A stretch of DNA of 64,000 nt from Aigarchaeota archaeon (lineage in GTDB: Archaea > Thermoproteota > Nitrososphaeria_A > Caldarchaeales > Calditenuaceae). The DNA lies in contig JANXDH010000004.1 of the NCBI GenBank assembly GCA_025059745.1, positions 533,646-597,645 on the forward strand, in the 5' to 3' direction. The translations under genes were made by a program, and so were the position numbers. The notes beneath the pieces were generated by a model. It was given only the letters and a program-made list of their open reading frames with translations, had not been told where the DNA came from and searched no databases. Positions 1,274-56,384 of the stretch are shown here, piece after piece (position 1 is the stretch's first letter; each line of letters starts with the position of its first letter).

Positions 1274-3442
1274 CTATGATATGTAGACCATGCTCTTCTT
1301 GAACTCCTTCATTATCTTCTCGTACTCCCTCCTCATCTCATCGGTTATGCTGGGTTTGACCTTCTCTAGGGCCGTCAAGAAGTGCCGCGCGGAGACCCTC
1401 GAGACGTCTATGTTCTCCCTCGCGGCCGTCAATGCAGCCTCCCTACAGACGGACTCTATGTCGGCGCCCGTGTAACCCTCCGTGAGGCGTGCCAAGTCCT
1501 CTAAACTCACATCGCTCTCCAGGGGCATCGCAGCCGTGTGTATCTTGAATATCTGTAACCTGGCCTCGTAGTCCGGCGGGGGCACGAATATGACCCTGTC
1601 AAACCTCCCGGGCCTCAGCAACGCTGGGTCGAGTATGTCCGGCCTGTTCGTCGCTCCCATGACGACCACTCCCCTGAGGGTCTGTATGCCGTCCATCTCG
1701 GTGAGGAGCTGGTTGACTATCCTGTCTGTGACGCCCGCGTCGCTGTGGGTACCTCTGCGTGGCGCGATCGAGTCCAGTTCATCGAAGAATATTATGCATG
1801 GCGCAGTCTCCCTGGCCTTCCTGAATATTTCGCGGACCGCCTTCTCAGACTCTCCCACCCACTTGCTGAGGACCTCGGGGCCCTTAACGCTGATGAAGTT
1901 AGCCTGACTCTCGGTGGCGACTGCCTTAGCGAGCAACGTCTTCCCAACGCCCGGCGGTCCGTACAACAGGATGCCTCGCGGCGGCCTTATTCCCAACCTC
2001 TTGAAGACGTGTGGGTATCTCATCGGCCACTCTACTGTCTCCTTCAACTGCTGCTTCACGTCCTCCAACCCGCCGATCATATCCCATTTGACGTTCGGTA
2101 TCTCTAAGATCACCTCCCTCAGTGCTGATGGCTGTACCGACTTGAGCGCCTCCGCGAAGTCCTCCCTCGTGACCTTCAGCTGCTCTAAAACGTCAGCCGG
2201 TATCACCTCTTTCTCGAGATCGATCTTAGGCAGGAACCTCCGTAGTGCGTTCATGGCGGCCTCCCTGCAGAGTGCGGCTATATCGGCGCCCGTGAAACCG
2301 TGGGTGATATCAGATAGCTCATCTAGGTTAACGTCTTTGTCAAGCGGCATCCTCCGTGTATGTATCTGCAGGATCTCCTTCCTGCCGTTCTTATCAGGCA
2401 CCCCCACCCTGATCTCCCTATCGAACCTCCCCGGTCTCCTAAGGGCGGGATCTATGGCCTCGATCCTGTTGGTTGCACCGATCACGACCACCTGGCCGCG
2501 GGACTTCAATCCATCCATCAGCGTTAGCAGCTGAGAGACCACGCGCCTCTCCACCTCACCCGTGACCTCGCCACGCTTCGGTGCGATCGCGTCAAGCTCA
2601 TCGATGAATATTATGCTAGGCGCCTTCTGTTCAGCCTCTTGGAAGACCTCCCTCAACCTAGCCTCGCTCTCACCGTAAAACTTACTCATTATCTCGGGGC
2701 CGTTTATAGTTATGAAGTATGCTCCGGTCTCGTTCGCGAGGGCCTTCGCGATGAGCGTCTTCCCGGTTCCGGGCGGCCCGTAGAGGATGACCCCCTTTGG
2801 AGGCTCAATCCCTAAATGCCTGAAGAGCTCTGGGTGCTTCATCGGTAGTTCGACCATCTCCCTAATCTTCTGAAGCTCCTCATGGAGGCCACCTATGTCC
2901 TCATAGGTGATGCCCATGACCTCTTCCGCGCGCTTCACCGGAGTCGAGCTGACCTCTATATTCGTGTTTTCAGTTATGATCACCATGTTCGCCGGAGAGG
3001 TCGAGATGACCTTCAGTTCAACACCCATCCCCAGTATCGGTATGATTACCACGTCACCTTTCGCCAAAGGGACGTTCAAGAGTTGACTCTTCACTATCCT
3101 GCTGAAATCGCCCACGAACGGAAGTTGCTCGAATGGCGCCATCACTACCTTGGTTGCGTTCTTTATGACGGCCTTCGTGATGGTGATGTAGTCGCCTACG
3201 TTTGCACCCGCGTTCCTCCTGATCTCGCTATCGATGCGAATCATGCCGAGTCCATCGTCCTCCTTGTATGGAGGCCACGCTATGGCCACCGTGCTCCGTT
3301 TGCCCACTATCTCTATCGCGTCTCCCGCAGTGAGCCCGAGCTCCTTATATGCGACACTATCGACCCGTGCGACCCTTCTCCCAACATCACGCTGTTTGGC
3401 CTCTGCTACGCGTAACTGAAACGTCTTTTTATCGTCCAACAT
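1274..3442 (-). CDS. cdc48: CDC48/VCP-like AAA+ ATPase (two AAA domains)
   Basis: 722 aa. Two Walker A motifs ([26 protein letters not shown]), two Walker B ([16 protein letters not shown]), and an N-terminal double-psi barrel region. Confidence 0.95.
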
Positions 3443-3473
3443 TCCGTCCTGTACCCTATATCGACTCGGTTAC

Positions 3474-3489
3474 TTAAAAATATAAATTT
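3474..3489. promoter_or_regulatory. A/T-rich TATA-like element (ttaaaaatataaattt) in the divergent cdc48/mdh intergenic region
   Basis: It is the only strongly A/T-rich block in a 98-bp divergent intergenic region. It lies ~30 nt upstream of the cdc48 start codon on the minus strand, consistent with an archaeal TATA box and a leaderless transcript. Confidence 0.4.
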
Positions 3490-3539
3490 GATATGCGTTA
3501 AATCATAAAACCTATTTCAAGCGCCTGAGAGATAAATTC

Positions 3540-4490
3540 TTGTTCAAGGGAATGGTGCTGATATCCATAATCGGTAGTGGAAGGGTCGGAACCTCTGCAG
3601 CAGTACAGATGATCCTGAGGGAGCTGGGAGACTTGATGCTGATAGACGTGGTGAAGGGTTTACCGCAGGGCGAGGCCCTGGACCTCTCTCACATGGCCGC
3701 CATGAGAGGGATAGACGTTGAGGTGAGCGGGTCGAACGATTACAGGGACATCACTGGATCTGATGTGGTCGTGGTGACGGCGGGATTGGTGAGGAAACCA
3801 GATATGACCCGGCTCGATCTCTTGCAGAAGAACGCCAAGATCGTTGGGGAGGTCGCAATTAAGATCAGGGAGTACGCCCCTCGTTCCATCATCGTCCAAG
3901 TCACGAACCCCCTAGACGTCATGACCTATGTCGCACTGAAGACCTCTCAGTTTAGGCGTGAACGCGTTCTTGGATTCAGCGGTCTCCTAGACATAGGCAG
4001 ATACAGGTACTACCTCGCCAAAGCCTTGAACGTCTCTTACACCTCGATAGTGGCACCAATACTCGGTGAGCACGGTGACAGCATGGTACTCTTACCAGAG
4101 CATACCTGGGTTGGTGGTAGGCGGCTAACCGAGTTACTCGACAAGGCGAAACTGGCGGAGGTGATCGATATGACGAGAAGGGCCGGTGCCGAGGTCATAT
4201 CGCTGAAGGGATGGTCTGCGCATCACGCCCCGGGCGAGGGGATAGCCGAGATGGTGGACGCGATAGTGAAGGACAGGAAGATGGTGATCCCCTCCTCGAT
4301 ACTACTGGACGGCGAGTACGATGTGCGGGGAGTCTGTACTGTTGTCCCCGTCGTTTTAGGGAGGGAGGGCGCGGAGAGGGTCGTGGAGTTGGACCTGCCA
4401 GATGAGGCGAGAGCCTCTTTCCTGAGGAGCGTGGACGTCATCAGGAGAGCTCAGGCGGAGGTCGACAGTTTACTCCGGTCAGGCTTTTGA
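3540..4490 (+). CDS. mdh: malate dehydrogenase (LDH-like MDH family)
   Basis: IIGSGRVGTSAA dinucleotide-binding motif and LDH/MDH-family colinearity (VVVTAG..RKPDMTRLDLL, active-site region GEHGDS). The start could alternatively be ATG 3552. Confidence 0.9.
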   Translation: MFKGMVLISIIGSGRVGTSAAVQMILRELGDLMLIDVVKGLPQGEALDLSHMAAMRGIDVEVSGSNDYRDITGSDVVVVTAGLVRKPDMTRLDLLQKNAKIVGEVAIKIREYAPRSIIVQVTNPLDVMTYVALKTSQFRRERVLGFSGLLDIGRYRYYLAKALNVSYTSIVAPILGEHGDSMVLLPEHTWVGGRRLTELLDKAKLAEVIDMTRRAGAEVISLKGWSAHHAPGEGIAEMVDAIVKDRKMVIPSSILLDGEYDVRGVCTVVPVVLGREGAERVVELDLPDEARASFLRSVDVIRRAQAEVDSLLRSGF

Positions 4491-15283: not shown

Positions 15284-15661
15284 ATGCGTTACGTCAGGGC
15301 TAGGGACTTGGAGGAGAGAACCAAGCGGATGGTCGATGCCCTCGGTCTGAACCATATAGACCCCGAGAGGGTGATCTGCATCAGGAGTTACGGATCTCGG
15401 TCCAAGAGGACGCTCGCTAGGGTCCATGCACCCTCGAAGGCCGTACTCGCGGCCCTGAACATGAAGCCCGTCTACGTGATAGAGTTCATTGAAGAAGCAT
15501 GCAGGAGACTGACCGATGAGCAGCTGGAGGACGTTATTCTCCACGAACTGCTTCACATCCCCAAGTCGTTCAGTGGAGGCCTGCGTGGCCACGACGCTAG
15601 GTTCTCCTCGGAGTTAGAGAGTTACAGGAAGTTCCTCAGTAGAGCTCGCAGATACCGATGA
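15284..15661 (+). CDS. small predicted zinc metallopeptidase (HExxH; SprT/WLM-like minimal domain)
   Basis: HELLH motif in a 125-aa protein. The 3' end overlaps the convergent cyclase gene by 26 bp. Confidence 0.45.
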   Translation: MRYVRARDLEERTKRMVDALGLNHIDPERVICIRSYGSRSKRTLARVHAPSKAVLAALNMKPVYVIEFIEEACRRLTDEQLEDVILHELLHIPKSFSGGLRGHDARFSSELESYRKFLSRARRYR

Positions 15662-17450: not shown

Positions 17451-18608
17451 CTAAGACGTTACGGAGTGGTGCCACCTCAGGATGTACTCCGGTAACTTCA
17501 GTCCCCTCTCCTGTAGTTTGTAGACCAGTAGGAGCGGTATGGGGCTGGAGGCGAACGCGGCCTTAAGATAGAAGTCATTGGGACCACCATCGAAGGAGTT
17601 GGATGGTATGTAGTACGAATAGTCCGAAAGGGCCTCTATCGTTGATCCCTTGGTACCGACTATTGATGCGACGACGCCCCCCATCTTCTTGAAGTTCTTA
17701 CACCACGCGGCAACGACCTCTATCTCTCCGCTCTGAGATATGACCAATAAGAGATCTCCAGCCCTCGGTGAGGGCGTGCTCGCGTCCCCTGCGACATAGA
17801 CCTGGTCCCCTATGGCCCTCTTCACGTGTCCCAACCTCACTGCGGTCATTCTGGCTACCTCCCTGCTGCTCCCTAAACCGGCAAGGAAGCAGACGTGCCT
17901 TTTCTCGAGCATATCGACGACGGTCTTCATGAAGTCCGATCTCACGACGTCCTCCACCACCTTCGTCACCTCCGAGGTGAAAGACGCTATGTACTCACGG
18001 ATCTGACTGGCCGGCGCGTCCCTGTTCAAGGTCTCGGCCAACCCATAGAGGAACAGGAGACCTCCGAGAATGAAGACGTCCTCTAATATACCAACTGATC
18101 TGAACTCGACGGTATCGATCTTGTCTTCACTGAGCTCCCTCCCCTTCAGGACCATGAGTGTGCCGTACTTGTAACCGAGTTTACCTAGCGGAGACTCCGG
18201 GTCACTCGTTATCACGTCTATCTTATGGTCCTTATAGTTCTCGGACTTGGCGATCAATAACGCGAGCTTTTGAGCGTCGATCAGCGGTAGGAGAGACTTC
18301 CCGCTACCGGAGAGTATTAGGAGCGAGATCTGCCCGAATCGTCTCCTCAACGTGGGCGCGGCCTCGTCTATATGCCTCGCGGGGAAGCCTATGTCACCCC
18401 TATCGATGACCACCTTACCGTTCTTCATCTTAGCTAGCTCGCTACAGAATATGCTCAGGGCACCCTTCGTCCTCCCCTCAGCGCTTGGTACTATAACGCC
18501 GGAACTCCTGATATCGGTATAGATGTCCTCGGTCGCCTTGTTGTCCAGTTCGTACAGATTGTTTACGATTTTGTTGATGAAACCAATCGAGGCGGAAATT
18601 TCACCCAT
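17451..18608 (-). CDS. double SIS-domain sugar-phosphate isomerase/deaminase (GlmS-C / AgaS / PGI-PMI-like)
   Basis: The C-terminal half matches the SIS/6-phospho-3-hexuloisomerase pattern (GLGSSREVARMTAVRLGH..DLLLVISQSGEIEVV..). The N-terminal half carries a second SIS-like core (ISLLILSGSGKS...VITSDPESPLGKLG). 385 aa. Confidence 0.6.
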   Translation of the reverse strand: MGEISASIGFINKIVNNLYELDNKATEDIYTDIRSSGVIVPSAEGRTKGALSIFCSELAKMKNGKVVIDRGDIGFPARHIDEAAPTLRRRFGQISLLILSGSGKSLLPLIDAQKLALLIAKSENYKDHKIDVITSDPESPLGKLGYKYGTLMVLKGRELSEDKIDTVEFRSVGILEDVFILGGLLFLYGLAETLNRDAPASQIREYIASFTSEVTKVVEDVVRSDFMKTVVDMLEKRHVCFLAGLGSSREVARMTAVRLGHVKRAIGDQVYVAGDASTPSPRAGDLLLVISQSGEIEVVAAWCKNFKKMGGVVASIVGTKGSTIEALSDYSYYIPSNSFDGGPNDFYLKAAFASSPIPLLLVYKLQERGLKLPEYILRWHHSVTS

Positions 18609-18664
18609 CCTAAGTTCACCTCTCTCTCCCTGAATAAAAGTATTAACCCATTAACATGGGTTTT

Positions 18665-19420
18665 TCATAGGTCCTCCCATTTCACGTATCTACGGGCCAA
18701 CAACCCCTCTACCACAACGAACCCAAGCAAGCCGGCTATTATATAGAGCAGTTCCACCTCACCTATCTCGCTCAGACTGAAGGACATCTGAATTATCCTC
18801 GCACAAACGTAAGTTGGAGTCAGGAAGGCCAGCTGTGCTATCTGGGGCGGGAGCAACTCGTGCGGGTAGAAGACCGGTGGTAGAACTGTCAGTAGTGCGG
18901 TGATCATGGGAGAGTAGGTCCATAGGTCCTTCAGCTCCTTTGCCCTGCTACCGATTATGAAACCCCACACCGATATGGTGATCCACAGCAATATCACGCA
19001 CCCCCCTATCACCAATAGATTGAACACCGTGACGGGGACGACCTGTGAGATCAAGAACAAGATCATTACCAGTGCAGGTACCGTAATAATCAGGTTGCCG
19101 AGAGCGATACCGAAGTAGTAAGGTAGAGGGCCACTCGGCGACGCAACGAAGACGTCCTGGAGCCTCAAGAGGACGCGCATGTGAGCTATGTCCGTCTCCA
19201 CTACTATGGTCGACGCGACCGTGATTGATATGAGGCCGCCTATCAGGGCATACGGCATGATAATGCTGCCCACGTAAACATACGCGAAGAAGATTATGGT
19301 AAATGGAGTGATGAGGTAGTTGAGGGCCCAGATGGGTTGCCTCTTGAACGGGATCAGGTTCGTGAGGTACGCTATCAGGAACGACCTCCACAACCCCATG
19401 AGAAGGCGCCTACCCCTCAT
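18665..19420 (-). CDS. ABC-2 type exporter permease
   Basis: Six predicted TM segments and ABC-2 family topology. Start overlaps the ATPase stop (TAATG). Confidence 0.75.
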   Translation of the reverse strand: MRGRRLLMGLWRSFLIAYLTNLIPFKRQPIWALNYLITPFTIIFFAYVYVGSIIMPYALIGGLISITVASTIVVETDIAHMRVLLRLQDVFVASPSGPLPYYFGIALGNLIITVPALVMILFLISQVVPVTVFNLLVIGGCVILLWITISVWGFIIGSRAKELKDLWTYSPMITALLTVLPPVFYPHELLPPQIAQLAFLTPTYVCARIIQMSFSLSEIGEVELLYIIAGLLGFVVVEGLLARRYVKWEDL

Positions 19421-20325
19421 TACTCAGCCCTGTTTACTACCTCGAGGAAGACGTCCTCCAGAGTGAGAGGAGATATGGTGGCTTTTGCTCCGTTACTTAC
19501 AGCTATCTCCGCCAACTCCCTCGCACCCCTCAGGTCGGTATAGACCCTCACAATCGAGCCCAGTACGATACAACGCCCGTAACCCCTGACAAGACTCAGG
19601 TCTAGACGTGACGTCTCGAGGTCAACCCTCATTTTCTTCTCGATCCTAGCCTTCAACTCTTGAACTGAAAAGGACGCTAGGACCCTTCCGGCCTCCAAAA
19701 TGGCTACGCTATCCGAGAGGACCTCAGCCTCTTCCATATCGTGGGTCGTCAATAGGACGGTCCTACCCTCACGAACAGACTTCCTAACGACCTCCCACAC
19801 TCTGTGCTTGCTAACAGGATCTAGACCTATCGTAGGTTCATCGAGGAAGAGTAGATCGGCCTCGGACGCCAACGCCATCCCGACAAGCACGCGCCTCCTC
19901 AAGCCGCCTGAGAGGTTGGAGGCTGGAACGTTCATGTAATCTGAGAGTTCCAGGTCTTTTAAGTAGCTCCTCGCCCGCTCCCTCGCCTCACTACGTCCTA
20001 TCCCCCGTATGTTCAGGTAATAGTAGACGTGTTCCCACGGCGTGCAGAGGTGCAGGGGATGTGACTCCTGGGGCACAACGGCCACCCTCTCCCTAACCAT
20101 CTTAGCCTCCCTCTCAACGTCATATCCCAATACCCTTAACTCACCCTTGGTCTTTCTGAGCTGTGTGGCCGCTATCCTCACGAAGGTCGTCTTCCCCGCT
20201 CCATTTCTACCCAGCAAGGAGACTACCTGTCCCCTCATGACCTTCAAGGAGAAGTCCTCAAGTGCCCATCTGAGACCGTCGTAGGTCTTATAAAGTCTTG
20301 TCGCCTCTATGGCGATCTCACTCAT
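19420..20325 (-). CDS. ABC transporter ATP-binding protein (ABC-2/DrrA-like)
   Basis: Walker A LLGRNGAGKTT, ABC signature LSGGLRRRV, and Walker B LLFLDEPT. ATGA overlap with the upstream GcvH/TusA gene. Confidence 0.9.
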   Translation of the reverse strand: MSEIAIEATRLYKTYDGLRWALEDFSLKVMRGQVVSLLGRNGAGKTTFVRIAATQLRKTKGELRVLGYDVEREAKMVRERVAVVPQESHPLHLCTPWEHVYYYLNIRGIGRSEARERARSYLKDLELSDYMNVPASNLSGGLRRRVLVGMALASEADLLFLDEPTIGLDPVSKHRVWEVVRKSVREGRTVLLTTHDMEEAEVLSDSVAILEAGRVLASFSVQELKARIEKKMRVDLETSRLDLSLVRGYGRCIVLGSIVRVYTDLRGARELAEIAVSNGAKATISPLTLEDVFLEVVNRAE

Positions 20326-20999
20326 GTCTTCTTTATGAGGACGTGTGCCAACTTCTGTTCGATTCTAAAATCGAGCACAACGTTCCCCGTAAATTCAGAC
20401 CACTGTCGTAACTGTTCATCTGAACCAGGGCTGTATTCTGCGACCACGTGGACAACCTCTCCTGGAGGTATAGAATTTATCATATCAGAGAGTACCATCA
20501 GTACCTGAGCGCAATCTACGCCTATCGCGGCGTAGACGTGATCCGGTACGTGATCGAAGCACATCAAACCTCTCCTCTTTGAGTCCTCAGCGACCCTATC
20601 AGATATCTCATCCCATTTTTGGAGGGAGCTGATTGAGCCTCTATCCAGTACCTCCGCCTCATAGATCCACCCGTCCTCGTAGTCCCCTATTTGTAAACGA
20701 TGTGGGTTATCCGACACGCCTTCATTGACCCTCAATATCCTGAGTCCTATAGGTGAGTGCACGTTACCGAGAAATTTGCGCCCTTCAATCATGAACAACA
20801 CCCCCTCGGGTTCTATGACCGTCCCCTCCCCCTTCAGCTTGATCCTTCTGATCTTGCCAAAGAGGGCCTGCGTGATAGGGAGTAGTCCTAAGCGAGAGAT
20901 AGAACCGTCCCTTACCTCGAACCACAAGTTACGCTCATAACTGTAGAGAAGATCTTCCCTATACTTACATCCTTGGATCACGTTAGCCCCTGCAGACAT
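20322..20999 (-). CDS. fusion protein: GcvH-like (lipoyl-domain fold) N-terminal domain + TusA-like sulfur-carrier C-terminal domain
   Basis: The N-terminal ~125 aa align with glycine-cleavage H protein, including a Lys at the lipoyl-lysine position (MIEGRKF vs AESVKAAS) and the GWI[FY] C-terminal motif. The C-terminal ~75 aa align with TusA (IGVDCAQV vs LGLRCPEP, PGEVV, LIKK). Confidence 0.6.
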   Translation of the reverse strand: MSAGANVIQGCKYREDLLYSYERNLWFEVRDGSISRLGLLPITQALFGKIRRIKLKGEGTVIEPEGVLFMIEGRKFLGNVHSPIGLRILRVNEGVSDNPHRLQIGDYEDGWIYEAEVLDRGSISSLQKWDEISDRVAEDSKRRGLMCFDHVPDHVYAAIGVDCAQVLMVLSDMINSIPPGEVVHVVAEYSPGSDEQLRQWSEFTGNVVLDFRIEQKLAHVLIKKT

Positions 21000-21057
21000 C
21001 CAACTGACATCATCTGTTATGCGGAGAAATAAAAAGGTAAAAAAGCAGGCCTGTAAA

Positions 21058-21900
21058 TTAACGCTCTATCGGTAGGCCCACCACGTTGCCCCACTCGGAC
21101 CAACTACCGTCATAGTTCCGTACTTTCGGATACTTCAACAGATACTTCAGTACGAACCAAGTCACGGATGACCTCTCACCTATTCGACAGTAGGTGATGA
21201 CCTCCTTATCGGGCGTTATCCCTAAAGACTCATAGAGCCTCCTCAGCTCCTCAACTGACTTGAAGGTCCCGTCCTCGTTTATGGCCTTTGCCCACGGTAC
21301 GTTCACGGCACCCGGGATGTGGCCACCCCTCTGCGCGTGTTCAGTCGGATACTCCGGTGGCGCTAAAATTTTACCAGCGTACTCGTCAGGAGATCGTACG
21401 TCAACCAAGCACACGTTCGTACTCCCCAGTCTAGATCTTACGTCGGGTAATAGTATTCTATACTCGTAGTTGACCCTCGTGACTTTGTACCTAGTCTGCT
21501 TATTACTCGGTACGTCTTTCACTAACGGCCTCTCCTCCTCGATCCACTTTCTCCTACCCCCGTCCATCAGGCTCACCCTCTTGTGGTCGTATAGCTTGAA
21601 GACCCAGAACGCGAACGAAGCGAACCAGTTGTTGAAGTCGCCGTAGAGCACAACCCACGTCTCATTCGATATCCCGTTCCTCTCCATTAACTTCTCGAAA
21701 CCCTCCTTGCTGACGATATCCCTCTCGAGCTCATCGTTTATATCCCTCTTCCAATCTATGAGCGTAGCGCCTTCTATGTGACCTTGGTGATAGGCCGCCG
21801 TGGGTTCGTAATCGACCTCCACCACCCTTACGTTATCAGCCTTTCTGTTGTTCCAAACCCAGTCTGTCGTCACTAAAGGAGGTGATTCTTCGGTAGACAT
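21058..21900 (-). CDS. thiosulfate sulfurtransferase (tandem rhodanese domains)
   Basis: Two rhodanese domains. Catalytic loop CRIGERSS (CRxGxR, TST-type). 280 aa. Confidence 0.85.
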   Translation of the reverse strand: MSTEESPPLVTTDWVWNNRKADNVRVVEVDYEPTAAYHQGHIEGATLIDWKRDINDELERDIVSKEGFEKLMERNGISNETWVVLYGDFNNWFASFAFWVFKLYDHKRVSLMDGGRRKWIEEERPLVKDVPSNKQTRYKVTRVNYEYRILLPDVRSRLGSTNVCLVDVRSPDEYAGKILAPPEYPTEHAQRGGHIPGAVNVPWAKAINEDGTFKSVEELRRLYESLGITPDKEVITYCRIGERSSVTWFVLKYLLKYPKVRNYDGSWSEWGNVVGLPIER

Positions 21901-22055: not shown

Positions 22056-23702
22056 ATGAGCAGTTTAGAATTTGACGGAGTAATTATAGGTGCAGGACAC
22101 AACGCCTTGGTCTTGGCCGGGTACATGGCTAAGTCGGGTCTGAAAGTGGCCCTGATCGAGAGGAACGTCACGATCGGCGGAGGATGCGGTACCTACATGC
22201 ATCCGGAGTATCCGGGGTTCCTTCACGAACTCCACTCCCAATTCCACAGGAACATTCCGAATCTACCGTGGTACAGGGACCTAGAGCTCTCAAACTACGG
22301 CCTTGACTACATATATCCACAGGCGAACAACGGGACGCCACTCAGCAGCGGTAAGAACATCGTAGTACACGCTAACCCCGACGTCTCCTACAAGTCCATC
22401 GAGAGGATCTCCAAGAAGGACGCCGACTCCTATTACAAGGTCTACCACAAGTACCAGGAGATGGGCAGGAAGATATGGTTCGTCCGCGATTACTCGCCCC
22501 CACTCCCTCCGGATGAAGAGGCTCGACTCCTAGAGAAGAGCGAGATGGGGCGCGAGTTCCTCCAGATCAACAAGAGGAGCGCTTACGACATCGTCATGGA
22601 TCTATTCGAGTCCGTGGAGATGCGCACGTTCTACCTCTTCCTCTACTCTATCAGAGGATATCTACCATCGCCCGAGAGCAAGAACACAGGTTTCGCTGCA
22701 GTCGCCATGACTTATCTGGGAAACAAGGCCATGTTACCGCGAGGAGGCTCAAGGATGCTCACCAACGCCCTGAGCAAGGTTGTACTCACGCACGGGGGGA
22801 TGATATTCGAGAACCACGAGGTCTCGAGGATAATCACGAAAAACGGGACTGCGATCGGTGTGGAGACCACTAACGGGAGGAAGTTCATGGCGAAGAAGTT
22901 CGTGGTGAGCAGCGTGGATCCGACCCAGACGTTCCTAAGGTTCATAGATGACGGACACCTCGGGAGCGACTTCTTGAAGAAGGTGAGGAACTACAAGTAC
23001 GGTGCATCGGCTAGGAGCTTCGGCGTCCTTTTCACTCTACACGCTGGAATCCACCAGCCCCCACGTTACGCATCGGAGAAGTGGGATCCGATGATCAACG
23101 AGGTCTTCAACACGTGCATAGGCTATGAGACGCCCGAGTCGATAATCAAGCACATTCATGAGACGATGGAGGGGATCGTACCCTCAGAGATAGGACTCCA
23201 GTGTGCTGTTCCGACACTCTTTGATCCAACGAGGGCACCTAAGGGTAAGCACGTGCTCCTCGCGTGGCAGTTCGCTCCGTATCATATAAAGGGTCACGGG
23301 CCAGAGAAGTGGGACGAGATAAAGTACTCGTATCTCGAGAAGGTCTTAGACAGGTGGGCCGATTACGCACCGAACCTCAGGAAGTCCTCGGGCAACATCA
23401 TATACATGTTCCCGCAGACCCCGCCTGATACGGAGAGGCACCTCATAAACATGAGGGAGGGAGACTTTCACGTGGGCGCCCTGATACCAGAGCAACTCGT
23501 GTACAACAGGCCCTTCCCGGAGGTCTCAAACTACCGCACACCGATAAAGAACCTCTACCTCACAGGAGCACCAACCCACCCAACCGGCAACATAACTGGA
23601 GCACCGGGCTACAATACCGCTCGAGTGATCGCGCAAGACCTCGGGATTAATCTCTGGTGGAATCCACCAGATCCGAGGAGGGAGTGGGCCTCACTAGAGT
23701 GA
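22056..23702 (+). CDS. FAD-dependent oxidoreductase, phytoene desaturase (CrtI)-related family
   Basis: GVIIGAGHNALVLAGYMAKSG..ALIE dinucleotide-binding motif and CrtI-like length (548 aa). Confidence 0.65.
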   Translation: MSSLEFDGVIIGAGHNALVLAGYMAKSGLKVALIERNVTIGGGCGTYMHPEYPGFLHELHSQFHRNIPNLPWYRDLELSNYGLDYIYPQANNGTPLSSGKNIVVHANPDVSYKSIERISKKDADSYYKVYHKYQEMGRKIWFVRDYSPPLPPDEEARLLEKSEMGREFLQINKRSAYDIVMDLFESVEMRTFYLFLYSIRGYLPSPESKNTGFAAVAMTYLGNKAMLPRGGSRMLTNALSKVVLTHGGMIFENHEVSRIITKNGTAIGVETTNGRKFMAKKFVVSSVDPTQTFLRFIDDGHLGSDFLKKVRNYKYGASARSFGVLFTLHAGIHQPPRYASEKWDPMINEVFNTCIGYETPESIIKHIHETMEGIVPSEIGLQCAVPTLFDPTRAPKGKHVLLAWQFAPYHIKGHGPEKWDEIKYSYLEKVLDRWADYAPNLRKSSGNIIYMFPQTPPDTERHLINMREGDFHVGALIPEQLVYNRPFPEVSNYRTPIKNLYLTGAPTHPTGNITGAPGYNTARVIAQDLGINLWWNPPDPRREWASLE

Positions 23703-51629: not shown

Positions 51630-54260
51630 TTACTCCGGTTGGTGGGGCCTGTGCCTCAAGTAGATCAAGGTCATCAAGGCCGCCACGATAGATATTAAGA
51701 GGACGCTGTACGGCCCGAGGGGGACAGTACGCCTCTGTGGTGAGGTCGTTGGGTCTATTGAGGATTCGCTCCTCAAACCCCCGAAGGTGATTGTCAAGGA
51801 CTTACCGTAGGGCGAGACTGGACCGAGACGGACGACACCGTCCCAGCTCGTTACACCCTCTGACTCTACGAACCCGTCCTCTCTGCTTACGGTCACAGAG
51901 AGCATGGGGGCGGGGAGATGGAACAGGTCCTTCAGAGTGAACTCTATGTAGTAGAGCCTCACCCCCACCCTTACCTCCCCCGAAGCCGCATCGACCGATC
52001 TCTGGTCCGTGACGTCGGCCCCTCTCCATATCGACCTCTGGACAGTCCATCTGCCTTCCCTCAACCATATTATACTCCCAGAATGATGAGATACGAATTC
52101 CCCGCCAGGTCCTATGAGTTCAAAGGTCACCGAACCCGAGGTGCCTGTGCGCGGCTCCTCGATAAGCAGGGACAGGACCTCCTTGACGTAACGAGCGGTT
52201 AGCGATAACGGGCGCGTGACCACCGCTGAGACGTTCACGAGCTCTGTGATCAGGTCACCGCTCCAGTGCCTGAAGGAGAGACGCTCCCGATCGCTCAAGT
52301 AGATGAACTCCGGCGCACTGAACGACACCTCTGAGCCCTGAGTGACCCAGAACCTCTGGGACTTTAGGGGTTCGGGATAGTTTATCGATATTAGGTGCTC
52401 TAGGGTCCAGATTGCTCGTACCCTCATCGGTCTATCCACTCTCACCTCGACCACCCTCTCGACAGAGGTGACGTCACCCTCCCACTTCTTGAAGATCGCC
52501 CGAGTAGAGTCCGATAGGTAACTGATCTGATCGGCAGAGACGATGGCCCTTGACCCCATGAGGTACCATCCCTCACCGCTGACTGATCCGACGCCGGATA
52601 TTAGGTCGAGGTAGTACTCCACGTCGTACCTCGCGATAGCGGTGATGGGCCTGACGACCCTGACCTCCAAGACCGTAGACCTGAGGTTGAGGCCACCCTC
52701 CCAAGACCTGAATACGGCTCTGGTCATGTTATCCCACTCAATATATCGAGGGTACTCGATCGTCAGCGTATCTCCCCTATCGATCCAGACGGTTTTATTG
52801 AGGTTGCCGTGAGTCGACCAGAGGGAGACTAGGTACTGCGTCGTCCACTCGGCGTACAGTCTCTTCGGCCCGTCGATCAACAGTCGCACCCTCGGTCCTT
52901 TCATCGCGTAATCTCCGGTGAATCCCGAGAGCTGGATCCTGGTCATGTTCATAAGGTCCACCGTAGACGGTTCTACCCACACCTCGGCTACTCCCCCCTC
53001 ATCGTACCAACCAGCACCGCGGGTGCTGCCATGTGCGGTGAATACGTCAACCTTGAATTGCCTCACCCACGTCGCGGTGACCTCGACAGGCCCTCTGACG
53101 ACGATCCTCAGTGTGTTTATCGTGGAGCCGAATGTACCGACCCACCTATCGAACCTTAACCTAGAGACCTCGCTTATCGGGACTACGCTGGGAACCTCTA
53201 AGTCTATAATGCTCTCCCTATCGAACCAATCAGTTAAGTCCCTCGTGAAGGTCCCGGCCACCCTAACCAGATATTGGGTCCTATAGTCTTGAACGACCTC
53301 CATGTGGTATCTCGGTCTGATTACTATCTCAGGAGAACTCGAGACGGCCCTTCCACCGATCGACCATCCGATGAACCTCATCCTAGTTGAACTATCGACA
53401 CCTACGATCTCATCACTCCTAAGAGTGATGGACTGACCAGGCTCGACGAGGAGTACTTCTAAAGGTATGAGGCCACTACCATCCACCCTGCGATAGATCT
53501 TGACGGAGAGCTTGATCGGGTACCCCTGTACGTCGAGCAGATAGAACATCGGTATCTCGGCTGGCAGGGTGACCCTCGACGGTACGTTCTCAAAGACGTT
53601 CGTAGCCATCCAGCGGTAAGCTACGGCCAGTGAATAGAGCTCAAGCGTGGACGGCCTGCTACCAGGGACCACGTACCTACACATTATGCTCCTGCAGTTC
53701 GTGGTGTGACCTATGCCGAGCGCGTGGGCGAATTCGTGGGCCGCCACCACCTTCGTGATCTCCTCATCGCCCCTCGTACACGACAACGAGATAGCTATGG
53801 ACGCGTTCACTATCTCCGTCCCCGCCCTGAAGATGTAGGCGACACCGCAGATACCCGAGCCCAACGTCTCAACGTACCTCATCCTGATGTCTCCCGAAGA
53901 ACCGTTAACGCCGTAGATCAGCACGTTGATCTTGAGCTCCTCCAAGTAGTTGTAACCGAAGAGAGCGGTGAATATCGGTATGGCGGTGATCCACCACCTC
54001 ACGCCCTCCGCCGCCCAGACCGTGTAAGCGTGTTCCTGGTGGGGATAGATGAGAACGTTCAGTTCCCTCTTCCTCCAAGAGCCCAGCAGATCTATCACGC
54101 CATCCTCTTGTCTCTGTTCGGTGAGGTTCGCGGGAGGACTCTCGTAGGTGATCGCGTGTGAGGACGATTGAAAGTCGTGGCCACCGTCAACAGGATGAAG
54201 AATAAGTATCACGAAAACAATTAAAATGAGCGTGATCGGTACCGCTCTCAAACACCTCAA
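51630..54260 (-). CDS. secreted, C-terminally membrane-anchored metzincin-type zinc metalloprotease with ~6 tandem beta-repeat domains
   Basis: N-terminal signal peptide, HEFAHALGIGH (HExxHxxGxxH), then ~65-aa repeats each with F-x2-W-x-G ... GxGWY motifs (InlB B-repeat-like). C-terminal TM helix PLGPYSVLLISIVAALMTLIYL. 876 aa. Confidence 0.65.
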   Translation of the reverse strand: MRCLRAVPITLILIVFVILILHPVDGGHDFQSSSHAITYESPPANLTEQRQEDGVIDLLGSWRKRELNVLIYPHQEHAYTVWAAEGVRWWITAIPIFTALFGYNYLEELKINVLIYGVNGSSGDIRMRYVETLGSGICGVAYIFRAGTEIVNASIAISLSCTRGDEEITKVVAAHEFAHALGIGHTTNCRSIMCRYVVPGSRPSTLELYSLAVAYRWMATNVFENVPSRVTLPAEIPMFYLLDVQGYPIKLSVKIYRRVDGSGLIPLEVLLVEPGQSITLRSDEIVGVDSSTRMRFIGWSIGGRAVSSSPEIVIRPRYHMEVVQDYRTQYLVRVAGTFTRDLTDWFDRESIIDLEVPSVVPISEVSRLRFDRWVGTFGSTINTLRIVVRGPVEVTATWVRQFKVDVFTAHGSTRGAGWYDEGGVAEVWVEPSTVDLMNMTRIQLSGFTGDYAMKGPRVRLLIDGPKRLYAEWTTQYLVSLWSTHGNLNKTVWIDRGDTLTIEYPRYIEWDNMTRAVFRSWEGGLNLRSTVLEVRVVRPITAIARYDVEYYLDLISGVGSVSGEGWYLMGSRAIVSADQISYLSDSTRAIFKKWEGDVTSVERVVEVRVDRPMRVRAIWTLEHLISINYPEPLKSQRFWVTQGSEVSFSAPEFIYLSDRERLSFRHWSGDLITELVNVSAVVTRPLSLTARYVKEVLSLLIEEPRTGTSGSVTFELIGPGGEFVSHHSGSIIWLREGRWTVQRSIWRGADVTDQRSVDAASGEVRVGVRLYYIEFTLKDLFHLPAPMLSVTVSREDGFVESEGVTSWDGVVRLGPVSPYGKSLTITFGGLRSESSIDPTTSPQRRTVPLGPYSVLLISIVAALMTLIYLRHRPHQPE

Positions 54261-54313: not shown

Positions 54314-55327
54314 GTGGACGCACCAAAGCTCGCGGTCTATGCGAGCCACTCGGCTCTACAGATAATCACCGGTGGAAGGAGAGAGGGGCTAAACGTCACG
54401 CTCTTTGGACCGGCGGAGAGGCTGACTTTCTATCGGAGGTTTAGGGCCCTGCAAATGAGTACGCTGGAGTGCACCAACGAGGACTGCATAGAGAAGTTAA
54501 ACTCTCTGAGTGACCACGTGGTCGTTCCAAACGGTAGTCTGGTGGAGTACGTCGGTGCAAAGAACGTCCTAGAGTTGAAGACGCCCCTCATCGGCTCGAA
54601 GGGTCTCTTGTGGATCGAGAGCCGCTGGAACCGGAAGATGAACCTCCTGATGGACGCCGGTCTACCGGTCCCCAAGTGGTTCTCGAGACCCGAGGAGGTA
54701 GACAGGTTGGTCATAGTGAAGTTGCCTGGCGCGAAGGGCGGGCGGGGATACATACTGACGGACTCACCCGGAGAGATAAACGAGTCCCTGAGGGAGTACG
54801 TGAGAAAGGGTATCATAAGCGACGCATCGGAGGCCTACATACAGGAGTACGTCGTCGGTATCCCGGTCTACGCCCACTACTTCATGAGTCCCATAATGAA
54901 CAGATTAGAGATAACGGGATTCGATGTGAGATACGAGACGAACGTCGACGGCCTCAGGCGTCTGAGCCACAGGAGAGCCGCTGAGATCAAACCTAGCTTC
55001 GTCGTAGGGGGCAACTTTCCGGTATATTTACGTGAGAGCCTCATAGAAACGTACATAGAGTGCGGTGAGAGGTTCGTCGAGGCCACCGGAAGGTATCTGG
55101 GGAAACCCGTCGTGGGCCCGTTCTGCCTCGAGTCCGTGGTGACCGAGGACCTGACGCCGGTCTTCTTCGAGTTCTCAGGGAGGATAGTCGCAGGTACCAA
55201 CGTATACATGGACGGGAGTCCTTACCTCGAGTTTTACTGGGGTGAGAGGATGAACGTGGGCCAGAGGATCGCGAGGGAGGTGAGGCTCGCGGCAGAACAG
55301 GGTCGCATCGATGAGGTGGTGACCTGA
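54314..55327 (+). CDS. purP: 5-formaminoimidazole-4-carboxamide ribonucleotide (FAICAR) synthetase PurP (ATP-grasp)
   Basis: Colinear with archaeal PurP: YASHSALQI, VVPNGSLVEYVG, GSKGLLWIESRW, KLPGAKGGRGY, YETNVDGL, YLRESL, VGPFCLE, AGTNVYMDGSPY, GQRIAREV. 337 aa. Confidence 0.85.
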   Translation: MDAPKLAVYASHSALQIITGGRREGLNVTLFGPAERLTFYRRFRALQMSTLECTNEDCIEKLNSLSDHVVVPNGSLVEYVGAKNVLELKTPLIGSKGLLWIESRWNRKMNLLMDAGLPVPKWFSRPEEVDRLVIVKLPGAKGGRGYILTDSPGEINESLREYVRKGIISDASEAYIQEYVVGIPVYAHYFMSPIMNRLEITGFDVRYETNVDGLRRLSHRRAAEIKPSFVVGGNFPVYLRESLIETYIECGERFVEATGRYLGKPVVGPFCLESVVTEDLTPVFFEFSGRIVAGTNVYMDGSPYLEFYWGERMNVGQRIAREVRLAAEQGRIDEVVT

Positions 55328-55454
55328 TCTGAGGACCATATCCATCTCATGCATCGCGAGCCACTCTGCCCTCGACGTATTCGATGGGGCGAAGGACGAG
55401 GGTTTCCGGACAATTGCGCTCTGCCAGGTCGGGAGGTCCAAGGTCTACCAGACA

Positions 55455-56384
55455 GTGAGAGAGACGGTGGACGAGTGTCTTGTATTACCGAATTACGCGA
55501 AGATCATCGAGGACGAGGTCCAGGCCGAGCTGTTGGGGAAGGACGCGGTGATAGTGCCCAATCGCAGCATGGCCGTCTATGTAGGATACGACAGGATAGA
55601 GGAGAGGCTTAGGGTCCCTGTATTCGGTAACAAGAAGATGCTGAGGTGGGAGGAGCGAGTCGGCGGGAAGAACTACTACGCGCTGCTCGACTCCGCAGGC
55701 ATTCGAAGGCCGAGGGTGATGAGGATCGAGGAGGTCGACGGTCCAGTGATATTGAAGGTCCAGGAGGCCATGAGGGAGCAGGAGAGGGCCTTCATAATAG
55801 CCTCTGACAGAGAGGACCTAGAGCGTAAGATAGAGTCTATGAGGTCTAGGAACCTCATCAGCGAGGAGACGCTGAGACGCTCGGTCATCGAGGAGCTCGT
55901 ACTTGGTGCACACTTCAACATAAATTACTTCTACAGCGTCGTCAGAAGGAGGTTGGAGATAGTAAGCATAGACCGGCGCATACAGTCTAACTTGGACGGA
56001 CTCCTCCACCTTCCAGCGAGGGATCAGCTCGACCTCCGGGCACCCGTCCGCATGATCGAGGTTGGTCACGTCCCCGTCAGCCTCAGGGAGAGCCTCTTGG
56101 AGGAGGCGATGGAGATCGGTGAGAGGTTTGTGGATGCCACACGCAGATTAGAACCGCCCGGCATAATAGGTCCCTTCACCCTACAGGTGATGGTGTCGCC
56201 CGATCTGAAGATGATCGTCTATGACGTCGCGACTAGGATAGGCGGTGGTACCAACGCGCAGATGGGGATAGGCGGACAGTACTCTAAGCTCTTCCTTAGA
56301 AAGGCGGTCTCTATGGGCCGTAGGATATGTATTGAGTTGAGGGAGGCTCTAGAGTCGAGCGCTTTGACCTCTGTTACAAGTTAA
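55455..56384 (+). CDS. purP: PurP paralog (FAICAR synthetase family); annotated from the first in-frame canonical start, which truncates the conserved N-terminus (possible frameshift/pseudogene)
   Basis: Same motif set as the upstream paralog (VVPNRSMAVYVG, GNKKMLRWEER, YESNLDGL, SLRESL, IGPFTLQ, GGTNAQMGIGGQY). Conserved IASHSALDVFDGAKDEGF is encoded in-frame upstream (55341-55454) without an ATG/GTG/TTG. Confidence 0.6.
   Translation: MRETVDECLVLPNYAKIIEDEVQAELLGKDAVIVPNRSMAVYVGYDRIEERLRVPVFGNKKMLRWEERVGGKNYYALLDSAGIRRPRVMRIEEVDGPVILKVQEAMREQERAFIIASDREDLERKIESMRSRNLISEETLRRSVIEELVLGAHFNINYFYSVVRRRLEIVSIDRRIQSNLDGLLHLPARDQLDLRAPVRMIEVGHVPVSLRESLLEEAMEIGERFVDATRRLEPPGIIGPFTLQVMVSPDLKMIVYDVATRIGGGTNAQMGIGGQYSKLFLRKAVSMGRRICIELREALESSALTSVTS

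What the first reader, a model, noticed from the sequence alone, without database searches (positions are those of the whole stretch)
20322..20999. GcvH-like / TusA-like two-domain fusion protein with a Lys at the lipoyl-lysine position
The N-terminal ~125 aa align with glycine-cleavage H protein (YSYERNLWFEV..., a conserved Lys in MIEGRKF where GcvH has the lipoylated AESVKAAS, and the C-terminal DGWIYEAEV motif). The C-terminal ~75 aa align end-to-end with TusA: IGVDCAQV corresponds to TusA LGLRCPEP with the Cys retained but CP changed to CA, and PGEVV and LIKK also match. Lipoate-binding GcvH-like proteins (LbpA) and TusA are separate partners in sHdr-type sulfur oxidation systems. A covalent fusion of the two folds is not something I recognise as described.
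Basis: partly seen in the sequence, partly recalled or inferred. Interest (0 to 1): 0.7.

Follow-up and report, generated by a model that had tools for sequence, protein, structure and literature searches.

The report
Archaeal LbpA-like/TusA-like fused sulfur carrier

Summary
ORF 20322-20999 (minus strand, 225 aa) is real. Residues 1-147 are a GcvH-fold module. It is closer to LbpA, the lipoate-binding protein of sHdr sulfur oxidation, than to GcvH, and it carries both LbpA-signature cysteines (C11, C147). Residues 150-225 are a TusA-fold domain, and C163 aligns with TusA Cys19.

The fusion defines a large uncharacterised archaeal family (Thermoplasmata, Aigarchaeota, Bathyarchaeia, Nitrosocosmicus, Thermoprotei, Methanomassiliicoccales). 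Databases name its members hypothetical protein, GcvH or TusA-family protein.

All three cysteines are conserved in at least 113 of 114 sequences. The lipoyl-lysine position (K75, not 74) is Arg in 98 of 114 and Lys in 11. Lys and Arg alternate between sister sequences in the tree. No sHdr or lipoate-assembly gene lies near any of 116 loci.

A CysA/SseA-type tandem rhodanese is adjacent in 71/71 Thermoplasmata loci and 12/21 others. A DrrAB-like ABC-2 transporter follows directly in several Aigarchaeota, and in this window its start overlaps the fusion's stop.

Best reading: a cysteine-based persulfide relay fed by the rhodanese, with an unknown final acceptor. The lipoate/sHdr interpretation is weakened. 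I rate it a new variant of a known kind.

The parts
20322..20999 (-). Full ORF, 225 aa: fusion of an LbpA-like module and a TusA-like domain
   Evidence: ORF. Both Pfam domains. AlphaFold2 pLDDT 94.8, pTM 0.87. Identical protein in Aigarchaeota MAG GCA_033581295.1.
20559..20999 (-). LbpA-type GcvH-fold module, aa 1-147, bounded by C11 and C147
   Evidence: GCV_H 52.8 bits. BLASTP to bona fide LbpA2 P0155 gives 67.8 bits, against at most 34 bits for PDB GcvH chains. Alignment A3.
20967..20969 (-). Cys11 (TGT), the N-terminal LbpA-signature cysteine in the GCxxP motif
   Evidence: Conserved in 113 of 114 sequences. Invariant in both fusions and stand-alone LbpAs.
20775..20777 (-). Lys75 (AAA), at the position of the lipoyl-lysine
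   Evidence: Aligns to the GcvH lipoyl-Lys. In the family this position is Arg 98, Lys 11, other 5. Lys and Arg alternate between sister sequences.
20559..20561 (-). Cys147 (TGC), equivalent to the C-terminal LbpA-signature cysteine, at the junction of the two domains
   Evidence: Conserved in 113 of 114 sequences. Aligns with the terminal GFGGC cysteine of LbpA. Lost together with C11 in P0012.
20325..20552 (-). TusA-fold domain, aa 150-225
   Evidence: Pfam TusA 20.3 bits, sub-threshold here, but 28 of 31 relatives match. Foldseek to 3lvj_C: E 1.2e-5, TM 0.86. The TusA of an shdr cluster hits 20328-20543 at E 6.5e-5.
20511..20513 (-). Cys163 (TGC), equivalent to the persulfide-carrying Cys19 of E. 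coli TusA
   Evidence: Conserved in 114 of 114 sequences. Ungapped alignment to TusA residues 7-48.
21058..21900 (-). Two-domain rhodanese (thiosulfate sulfurtransferase type, CRIGERS loop, Cys238 at 21187-21189), 58 bp upstream
   Evidence: Pfam Rhodanese 116.5 bits. 342 bits to T. thermophilus rhodanese 1UAR and 311 bits to M. tuberculosis CysA-type chains. An orthologue is adjacent to the fusion in 71/71 and 12/21 informative loci.
19420..20325 (-). DrrA-like ABC ATPase; its ATG overlaps the fusion's TGA (ATGA at 20322-20325)
   Evidence: An orthologue lies 22-57 bp downstream of the fusion in other Aigarchaeota. It is the best window match for the Thermoplasmata copy.
18665..19420 (-). ABC-2 type permease, overlapping the ATPase gene by 1 bp
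   Evidence: Weak ABC2_membrane match. 37-41% identical to the permeases in loci where the fusion is followed by the ABC genes. The Thermoplasmata permeases match only this permease in the window.

Best explanation
The ORF encodes a cytoplasmic two-domain sulfur-carrier protein. A complete LbpA-type module (GcvH fold plus LbpA's two signature cysteines, C11 and C147) is fused to a TusA-type domain that keeps the persulfide-carrying cysteine (C163).

Proposed mechanism:
1. The neighbouring CysA/SseA-type tandem rhodanese takes sulfane sulfur from thiosulfate or another donor onto its CRIGERS cysteine. This is inferred from homology.
2. The rhodanese passes the sulfur as a persulfide to C163. 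This is inferred from the TusA Cys19 equivalence and from the near-obligate adjacency of the rhodanese.
3. The sulfur moves on to, or is resolved by, the C147/C11 pair of the LbpA-like module. This step is speculative.
4. An unidentified acceptor takes it. Candidates are the translationally coupled DrrAB-like ABC-2 transporter in Aigarchaeota and Thermoplasmata, or DsrE/TusA/cysteine-desulfurase proteins in Bathyarchaeia.

The conserved chemistry is cysteine-based. Lipoylation is not a family requirement, although K75 of this particular protein could still be modified.
For: Architecture and folds.

LbpA ancestry: family profile scores 136 bits to LbpA2 P0155 against 92 bits to the best PDB GcvH. 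P0155 lies in a cluster reading Rhd, TusA, sHdrC1B1A-hyp-C2B2, LbpA1, DsrE, LbpA2, radical-SAM, LplA, FAD protein, radical-SAM. That LbpA2 is 45% identical (E 3e-37) to the N-terminal domain of a Bathyarchaeial fusion.

Cysteines: C11 and C147 are invariant across both fusions and LbpAs. Counts are C11 113/114, C147 113/114 and C163 114/114. The one member lacking C11 is also the one lacking C147.

Lysine: Arg 98 and Lys 11 of 114, and Lys and Arg alternate between sister sequences.

Rhodanese adjacency holds across at least three lineages: 71/71 Thermoplasmata loci and 12/21 others. These include Aigarchaeota, Bathyarchaeia and a Thermoproteota locus where the gene pair sits inside the nuo operon.

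A Bathyarchaeial cluster reads rhodanese, fusion, DsrE-like, TusA, class-V aminotransferase.

ABC linkage: ATGA overlap in the window; 22-57 bp gaps in other Aigarchaeota; within 6 kb in 49/49 Thermoplasmata loci; same transporter subfamily.

Published background: Rhd, DsrE and TusA form sulfur-transfer networks, and TusA co-purifies with LbpA in Aquifex (PMC11094781).
Against: No biochemical data exist for any member. I could not read the model coordinates, so the spatial relation of C11, C147 and C163 is unknown. The TusA CPxP signature is missing here (CAQV) and in most members. This protein's own TusA score is below Pfam's cut-off. In Thermoplasmata the rhodanese is convergent, so it is not co-transcribed with the fusion. 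One Thermoplasmata lineage (L003-L005) and a Nitrosocosmicus locus have no adjacent rhodanese. The transporter's substrate is unknown. K75 is present in this protein, so lipoylation cannot be excluded for it.
Confidence: 0.6

Rival explanations
1. The protein is a genuinely lipoylated LbpA fused to its sulfur donor TusA, and it serves an sHdr-type sulfur-oxidation system encoded elsewhere in the genome.
For: K75 is present, with the E-x-x-K context retained. The N-terminal domain derives from LbpA. TusA and LbpA interact in the sHdr pathway (PMC11094781). One Thermoproteota locus has an LplA-like gene about 5 kb away.
Against: LbpA's Lys is strictly conserved (PMC6067878). Here it is Arg in 86% of sequences, including nearly all of this protein's closest relatives, and Lys and Arg alternate between sister sequences. 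No sHdrA/B/C, sLpl(AB) or LipS homologue was found in 1.5 Mb around 116 loci plus the window. The family also occurs in Nitrosocosmicus, an ammonia oxidiser; to my knowledge ammonia oxidisers are not sHdr sulfur oxidisers.
Confidence: 0.1
2. The three invariant cysteines bind a metal or an Fe-S cluster. The protein would then be a scaffold, carrier or sensor, not a persulfide relay.
For: There are three cysteines at or near invariance. One lineage has a divergent hemerythrin/RIC-like neighbour. In another lineage the gene pair sits inside the Fe-S-rich complex I operon.
Against: No fourth conserved ligand exists; H184 and H219 are not invariant. C163 occupies the canonical TusA persulfide site. 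A rhodanese, which is a sulfane-sulfur enzyme, is the constant partner. P0012 keeps C163 alone.
Confidence: 0.1
3. The protein is mainly an accessory or substrate-handling subunit of the DrrAB-like ABC-2 transporter, by analogy with the TusA-like YeeD working with the YeeE thiosulfate transporter. The rhodanese link would be secondary.
For: The fusion's stop overlaps the ATPase start in the window. Loci where the fusion is followed by abcA and abcP, with no rhodanese, occur in several Aigarchaeota. The same transporter subfamily lies near the fusion in Thermoplasmata. Foldseek also finds YeeD within the YeeE-YeeD complex.
Against: Many loci have a rhodanese but no ABC genes nearby. Rhodanese adjacency is phylogenetically broader. 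In Thermoplasmata the ABC genes are 1.5-3 kb away on the other strand.
Confidence: 0.12
4. The protein is an ordinary glycine-cleavage H protein with a C-terminal extension, which is how several databases name family members.
For: GCV_H is the only Pfam hit above threshold. The database names are shown.
Against: The Lys is not conserved. The protein scores far below the NCBIfam GcvH cut-offs (51 bits against 117). It carries the LbpA-type cysteines. No gcvT or gcvP is in the window.
Confidence: 0.01
5. The fusion is an artefact: two adjacent genes joined by a frameshift or an assembly error.
For: None was found. IMG holds a few split fragments of family members.
Against: The same continuous ORF appears in two independent assemblies of this organism and in more than 200 loci from many studies. 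The interdomain arrangement is modelled with confidence, pTM 0.87.
Confidence: 0.01

Closest known systems
[quoted passage not shown] 2018, PMC6067878)
   Same: It shares the GcvH fold. It shares the N-terminal GCxFPxDLLY motif and the cysteine at the C-terminal end of the module, both of which GcvH lacks. The ES-x-[KR]-[FWY]-x-G hairpin resembles LbpA's ESGKWVG. Identity to a genuine LbpA2 reaches 45%.
   Different: The lipoyl-Lys is mostly Arg. The gene is never next to shdr, lplA or lipS. The module is covalently fused to a TusA-like domain, and its conserved partners are a tandem rhodanese and an ABC-2 transporter.
TusA (E. coli YhhP; sulfur carrier in tRNA thiolation, molybdenum cofactor synthesis, Dsr and sHdr pathways)
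   Same: It has the same fold (TM 0.86, rmsd 1.5 A). The cysteine sits at the Cys19 position. The PDH, G and PGE motifs are shared, and many members share the DDP[AT] motif. Bathyarchaeial members keep CPGP and ADDPATT.
   Different: CPxP is replaced by C-[SA]-A-[VI] in most members, and by CAQV here. The domain is not free-standing. This protein scores below the Pfam cut-off.
GcvH, the glycine cleavage H protein
   Same: Same fold and same Pfam family. The Lys of this protein aligns with the lipoyl-Lys.
   Different: It falls far below the GcvH equivalog cut-offs. The Lys is not conserved. It has extra cysteines. There is no gcvT/gcvP context.
YeeD(TsuB)-YeeE(TsuA) and related pairs of a TusA-like protein with a membrane transporter
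   Same: A TusA-fold protein is genetically coupled to a membrane transporter. Foldseek finds YeeD in 8k1r.
   Different: The transporter here is an ABC-2 ATPase/permease system, not a YeeE-type channel. The direction of transport and the substrate are unknown.
Rhd-DsrE-TusA sulfur-transfer networks (Tanabe et al. 2024, PMC11094781; Liu et al. 2014, PMC4175335)
   Same: A rhodanese is genetically linked to a TusA-type carrier. One Bathyarchaeial locus adds DsrE-like, TusA and class-V aminotransferase genes.
   Different: The rhodanese here is the two-domain CysA/SseA type. No DsrE is present in most loci. The relay partners are fused into one polypeptide.

Membership tests
GcvH (PF01597 / TIGR00527) | Profile match to the H-protein family | tested here: met
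   Pfam scores 52.8 bits against a cut-off of 22.2. The NCBIfam equivalog models are far below their cut-offs: 51.4 against 117 and 32.3 against 115.85.
GcvH (PF01597 / TIGR00527) | Conserved lipoyl-lysine | tested here: not met
   K75 is present in this protein. Across orthologues the position is Arg 98, Lys 11, other 5 of 114.
GcvH (PF01597 / TIGR00527) | Genomic association with gcvT/gcvP | tested here: not met
   None in the 64-kb window. GCV_T appears 4 kb away in only one Thermoplasmata lineage.
LbpA (sHdr-associated lipoate-binding protein) | Two cysteines that GcvH lacks, one near the N-terminus and one at the C-terminus | tested here: met
   C11 and C147 are invariant in an alignment with LbpAs from an shdr cluster. 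The feature is defined in PMC6067878.
LbpA (sHdr-associated lipoate-binding protein) | Strictly conserved lipoyl-lysine | tested here: not met
   Met in this one protein. Not met in the family or in its closest relatives.
LbpA (sHdr-associated lipoate-binding protein) | Encoded in or next to shdr genes and the lipoate-assembly genes sLpl(AB) and LipS1/S2 | tested here: not met
   tblastn with an shdr cluster's proteins found no sHdrA/B/C, sLplAB or LipS hit in 1.5 Mb. Presence elsewhere in the genome could not be tested.
LbpA (sHdr-associated lipoate-binding protein) | Actual lipoylation of the protein | not testable with these tools
   This needs mass spectrometry of native or LplA-treated protein.
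TusA (PF01206) | Profile match | tested here: inconclusive
   This protein scores 20.3 bits against a cut-off of 28.6. However, 28 of 31 relatives match, best 6.7e-14. The family profile against PDB TusA gives 5e-11. A relative, L106, passes with 35.4 bits.
TusA (PF01206) | TusA fold | tested here: met
   Foldseek to 3lvj_C: E 1.2e-5, TM 0.86, rmsd 1.5 A over 74 residues.
TusA (PF01206) | Cysteine equivalent to the persulfide-carrying Cys19 | tested here: met
   The ungapped alignment places C163 on Cys19. It is conserved in 114 of 114 sequences.
TusA (PF01206) | CPxP signature around the cysteine | tested here: not met
   This protein has CAQV. The family has C-[SA]-A-[VI]. CPGP is retained only in Bathyarchaeial members and P0012.
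Rhodanese-TusA sulfur relay | Conserved genetic linkage to a rhodanese with a catalytic cysteine loop | tested here: met
   Adjacent in 71/71 and 12/21 informative loci. The CRIGERS loop aligns with T. thermophilus rhodanese 1UAR.
Rhodanese-TusA sulfur relay | Demonstrated sulfur transfer between the proteins | not testable with these tools
   This needs in vitro persulfide-transfer assays.

The most novel reading that the evidence does not exclude
The family would be a lipoate-independent descendant of LbpA. The C11/C147 cysteine pair would take over the sulfur-binding or dithiol role usually assigned to lipoamide. It would be hard-wired to its TusA donor and fed by a dedicated rhodanese. It would hand sulfane sulfur to an ABC-2 transporter, or take it from one. 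That would make an undescribed archaeal system for sulfane-sulfur trafficking or export, found in aerobic soil, hot-spring and ammonia-oxidising archaea that have no sHdr. A corollary is that the unexplained conserved cysteines of canonical LbpA are themselves sulfur-handling residues.
Probability: 0.25. Interest if true: 0.8.

Novelty: new variant of a known kind. Interest (0 to 1): 0.6.

Why it matters
1. The fusion is independent 'Rosetta-stone' evidence that LbpA-type and TusA-type modules work in direct contact. So far this rests mainly on co-purification in Aquifex (PMC11094781).

2. The fusion family keeps LbpA's two enigmatic cysteines nearly invariant while freely replacing the lipoyl-lysine. 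That points to the cysteines as a functional site in their own right. It gives the sHdr field a natural 'K-to-R mutant' family to test.

3. It defines a conserved rhodanese-plus-carrier gene pair, often with an ABC-2 transporter. The pair occurs in abundant uncultured soil Thermoplasmata, hot-spring Aigarchaeota, Bathyarchaeia and the ammonia oxidiser Nitrosocosmicus. Cytoplasmic sulfur trafficking is essentially uncharacterised in these organisms.

4. Family members are currently misnamed as GcvH, as TusA-family protein or as hypothetical protein.

Tried and rejected
- The word-index homologue search with the single protein found only itself. The exhaustive HMMER search was needed to find the family.
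- The search for related loci with the diverse alignment A1 failed for lack of a conserved stretch. Narrower alignments A2 and A4 worked.
- The afdb50 fold library was unavailable, so I could not check whether UniProt/AFDB holds annotated full-length analogues.
- Foldseek against PDB found no full-length two-domain analogue; the best query-normalised TM was 0.53.
- Model coordinates are not exposed to scripts, so I could not measure Cys-Cys distances.
- An apparent conserved 243-aa ORF upstream of the ABC-linked fusions was rejected as the antisense reading of a hemerythrin gene.
- NCBIfam gave no specific name for the ABC transporter beyond DrrA/DrrB-like.
- I looked for sHdr, lipoate ligase, LipS, DsrE or stand-alone TusA genes across the whole 64-kb window and found none.
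- Seven literature searches found no description of the fusion. The library lacks most subscription-journal papers, so a prior description cannot be excluded.
- All Thermoplasmata loci from the genome scan belong to one clade. I therefore count them as roughly one deep independent observation for synteny, not 71.
Full report
**The observation**

An ATG-to-TGA ORF of 225 aa occupies exactly 20322-20999 on the minus strand. Pfam GCV_H matches aa 19-136 at 52.8 bits, against a cut-off of 22.2. Pfam TusA matches aa 160-224, end to end on the profile, at 20.3 bits and E 4.9e-4, which is below the cut-off of 28.6.

The Lys in IEGRKF aligns with the lipoyl-Lys of solved H-proteins. It is residue 75, not 74. 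The stretch VPDHVYAAIGVDCAQV aligns without gaps to TusA SPDHTLDALGLRCPEP, which puts C163 on Cys19.

An AlphaFold2 model built on 31 relatives is very confident, with pLDDT 94.8 and pTM 0.87. It superposes separately on GcvH (TM 0.87-0.90) and on TusA (TM 0.86, rmsd 1.5 A). No full-length analogue exists in the PDB.

**Source organism and family**

The identical protein is annotated 'hypothetical protein' in an Aigarchaeota MAG, GCA_033581295.1.

An exhaustive HMMER search of 1.84 billion cluster representatives found about 35 full-length relatives of 215-250 aa at 24-40% identity. A motif scan of species-representative genomes found 194 confirmed loci, and the best 80 are all Thermoplasmata. 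A metagenome scan added 21 closer relatives.

Named members come from Calditenuaceae, Ca. Caldarchaeum, Ca. Pelearchaeum, Bathyarchaeia, Thermoprotei, Ca. Nitrosocosmicus, Methanomassiliicoccales and Ca. Sysuiplasma. One record is labelled Saccharimonadales and is probably mis-binned.

Databases call these proteins hypothetical protein, GcvH or TusA-family protein. IMG sometimes auto-names both domains. Of 31 diverse members, all 31 hit GCV_H and 28 hit TusA, best E 6.7e-14. The family profile finds PDB GcvH at 2e-25 and TusA at 5e-11.

**The N-terminal module is LbpA-type**

The best single-domain matches to the family profile are 145-aa proteins (126-136 bits). They carry an N-terminal RGCEFPEDLLYS motif, an ESGKWVGP hairpin and a C-terminal GFGGC. 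By comparison, the best PDB GcvH scores 92 bits.

One of these proteins, P0155, lies in a textbook cluster. The gene order is Rhd, TusA, sHdrC1, sHdrB1, sHdrA, hyp, sHdrC2, sHdrB2, LbpA1, DsrE, LbpA2 (P0155), radical-SAM, LplA, FAD protein, radical-SAM. P0155 is therefore a bona fide LbpA.

Cao et al. (PMC6067878) define LbpA by a strictly conserved Lys plus two cysteines that GcvH lacks, one N-terminal and one C-terminal. In a joint alignment, C11 and C147 of the fusion are invariant and coincide with those two LbpA cysteines. That LbpA2 is 45% identical (E 3e-37) to the N-terminal domain of a Bathyarchaeial fusion.

**What is conserved**

In 114 non-identical sequences, C11 is present in 113, C147 in 113 and C163 in 114. 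The lipoyl position is Arg in 98, Lys in 11 and another residue in 5.

In a neighbour-joining tree, Lys and Arg alternate between sister sequences. T, V, S, G and A also occur at this position. Among the closest relatives of the window protein (33-40% identity), nearly all have Arg.

P0012 is the only member lacking C11 and also the only one lacking C147, while it keeps C163. This suggests that C11 and C147 act as a pair.

The TusA CPxP signature is replaced by C-[SA]-A-[VI] in most members and by CAQV here. Bathyarchaeial members retain CPGP and ADDPATT.

**Genomic context**

In the window the gene order on the minus strand is as follows:
- rhodanese (21058-21900), followed by a 58-bp spacer;
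- the fusion, whose stop overlaps the next start as ATGA;
- a DrrA-like ABC ATPase (19420-20325), which overlaps the next gene by 1 bp;
- an ABC-2 permease (18665-19420);
- a SIS-domain protein.

The rhodanese is the two-domain thiosulfate-sulfurtransferase type with a CRIGERS loop. It scores 342 bits to T. thermophilus rhodanese 1UAR.

An orthologous rhodanese lies within 200 bp of the fusion in 71/71 informative Thermoplasmata loci, where it is convergent. It is also adjacent in 12/21 other loci, where it is mostly upstream and co-directional.

Other contexts found:
- a Bathyarchaeial cluster reading rhodanese, fusion, DsrE-like, TusA, class-V aminotransferase;
- a Caldarchaeum locus preceded by ETF and FAD-oxidoreductase genes;
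- a Thermoproteota locus where the fusion-rhodanese pair sits inside the nuo (complex I) operon.

The ABC ATPase and permease directly follow the fusion, with 22-57 bp gaps, in other Aigarchaeota that lack an adjacent rhodanese. They lie within 6 kb in 49/49 Thermoplasmata loci with long flanks. Reciprocal matching shows that these belong to the same transporter subfamily and are not related to the window's second ABC-2 system.

No sHdrA/B/C, sLpl(AB) or LipS homologue occurs anywhere in the window or in the 116 loci, 1.5 Mb in total.

**Interpretation**

- Shown: the protein is a real, conserved fusion of an LbpA-like and a TusA-like domain, with three near-invariant cysteines. The lipoyl site is dispensable across the family. 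The gene is linked to a rhodanese and to an ABC-2 transporter.
- Inferred: the rhodanese loads sulfane sulfur onto C163, as in known Rhd/TusA networks (PMC11094781).
- Speculative: sulfur moves on to the C147/C11 pair and then to an unknown acceptor, possibly the transporter.

I put about 0.6 on the cysteine-based sulfur-relay reading. The rivals are a lipoylated sHdr partner (0.1), a metal/Fe-S binder (0.1), a transporter accessory subunit (0.12), GcvH (0.01) and an artefact (0.01).

**Limits**

Several things could not be done. I could not read model coordinates, so Cys-Cys distances are unknown. I could not scan the rest of the genome for sHdr or lipoate genes. I could not search AFDB. The literature library is incomplete.

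The Thermoplasmata loci are one clade and should not be counted as independent. The window protein is a divergent member: it has R at the otherwise invariant P14 and lacks the DDPTA motif. In the relatives where the rhodanese and the SIS-domain protein flank the fusion, its neighbours are 62-75% identical to the window's, while the fusion itself is only about 39% identical.

**Verdict**

However, the lipoate/sHdr mechanism is not what the family conserves. This is an undescribed variant of known sulfur-carrier modules. It is of moderate-to-high interest (0.6) because it bears directly on how LbpA and TusA cooperate.

Noticed in passing
P0012 (family member): P0012 is the only family member lacking C11 (replaced by D) and the only one lacking C147 (replaced by F). 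Both are lost together. It keeps C163 with a canonical CPGP motif and has Lys at the lipoyl position.
   Followed up: partly
L119:1958-9848 (Thermoproteota archaeon metagenome contig): The fusion and a convergent rhodanese are inserted in the middle of the complex I operon, between nuoA-B-C-D-H-I and nuoJ-K-N. The fusion's start overlaps the end of nuoI. An LplA-like gene lies about 5 kb downstream, although this member has Arg at the lipoyl position.
   Followed up: no
L094:2165-5899 (Bathyarchaeia): The cluster reads rhodanese, fusion, DsrE-like, stand-alone TusA, class-V aminotransferase (cysteine-desulfurase family). This fusion keeps the canonical TusA motifs CPGP and ADDPATT.
   Followed up: partly
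L103-L116, e.g. L106:5261-5908 (-); window 1274-4490: A 215-aa hemerythrin HHE-domain protein is conserved divergently upstream of the fusion, abcA and abcP in one Aigarchaeal lineage. In L106 this cluster sits between CDC48 and malate dehydrogenase. Those two genes are directly adjacent in the window, which suggests the window lineage moved the ABC genes or merged two paralogous loci.
   Followed up: partly
L096-L102 compared with window 17451-21900: The fusion evolves much faster than its neighbours. The rhodanese is 74-75% identical and the SIS-domain protein 60-62% identical, but the fusion only 38-39%. The window protein has R at the otherwise invariant P14 (113/114) and lacks the DDPTA motif.
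   Followed up: partly
window 21000-21057 (minus strand): The 58-bp spacer between the rhodanese and the fusion reads ...GGCCTGCTTTTTTACCTTTTTATTTCTCCGC... . It has a T-run followed by a TATA-like box about 30 nt before the ATG. The fusion and ABC genes may therefore have their own promoter.
   Followed up: no
window 22056-23702 (+): A 548-aa FAD oxidoreductase of the CrtI/CrtO family (NCBIfam CrtO-like 255 bits, far below its cut-off) is divergently transcribed from the rhodanese. It is not conserved next to the fusion elsewhere.
   Followed up: partly
L053:8711-10030 (-): In this Thermoplasmata locus the rhodanese ORF can be extended upstream in frame through a SUI1/eIF1-like sequence (…RIRVRAEPRRYNKPATVISGF…). 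This is probably a separate small gene between the rhodanese and the ABC permeases.
   Followed up: no
window 15284-15661 (+); 54314-56384 (+); 51630-54260 (-): Three unrelated items: a 125-aa PF18894 'PhageMetallopep' protein; two tandem DUF1246/DUF1297 paralogues; and an 876-aa protein whose only Pfam hit is a short matrixin zinc-protease motif.
   Followed up: no
P0206: One family member is deposited under a 'Candidatus Saccharimonadales bacterium' MAG, while every other named member is archaeal. It is probably a binning error.
   Followed up: no
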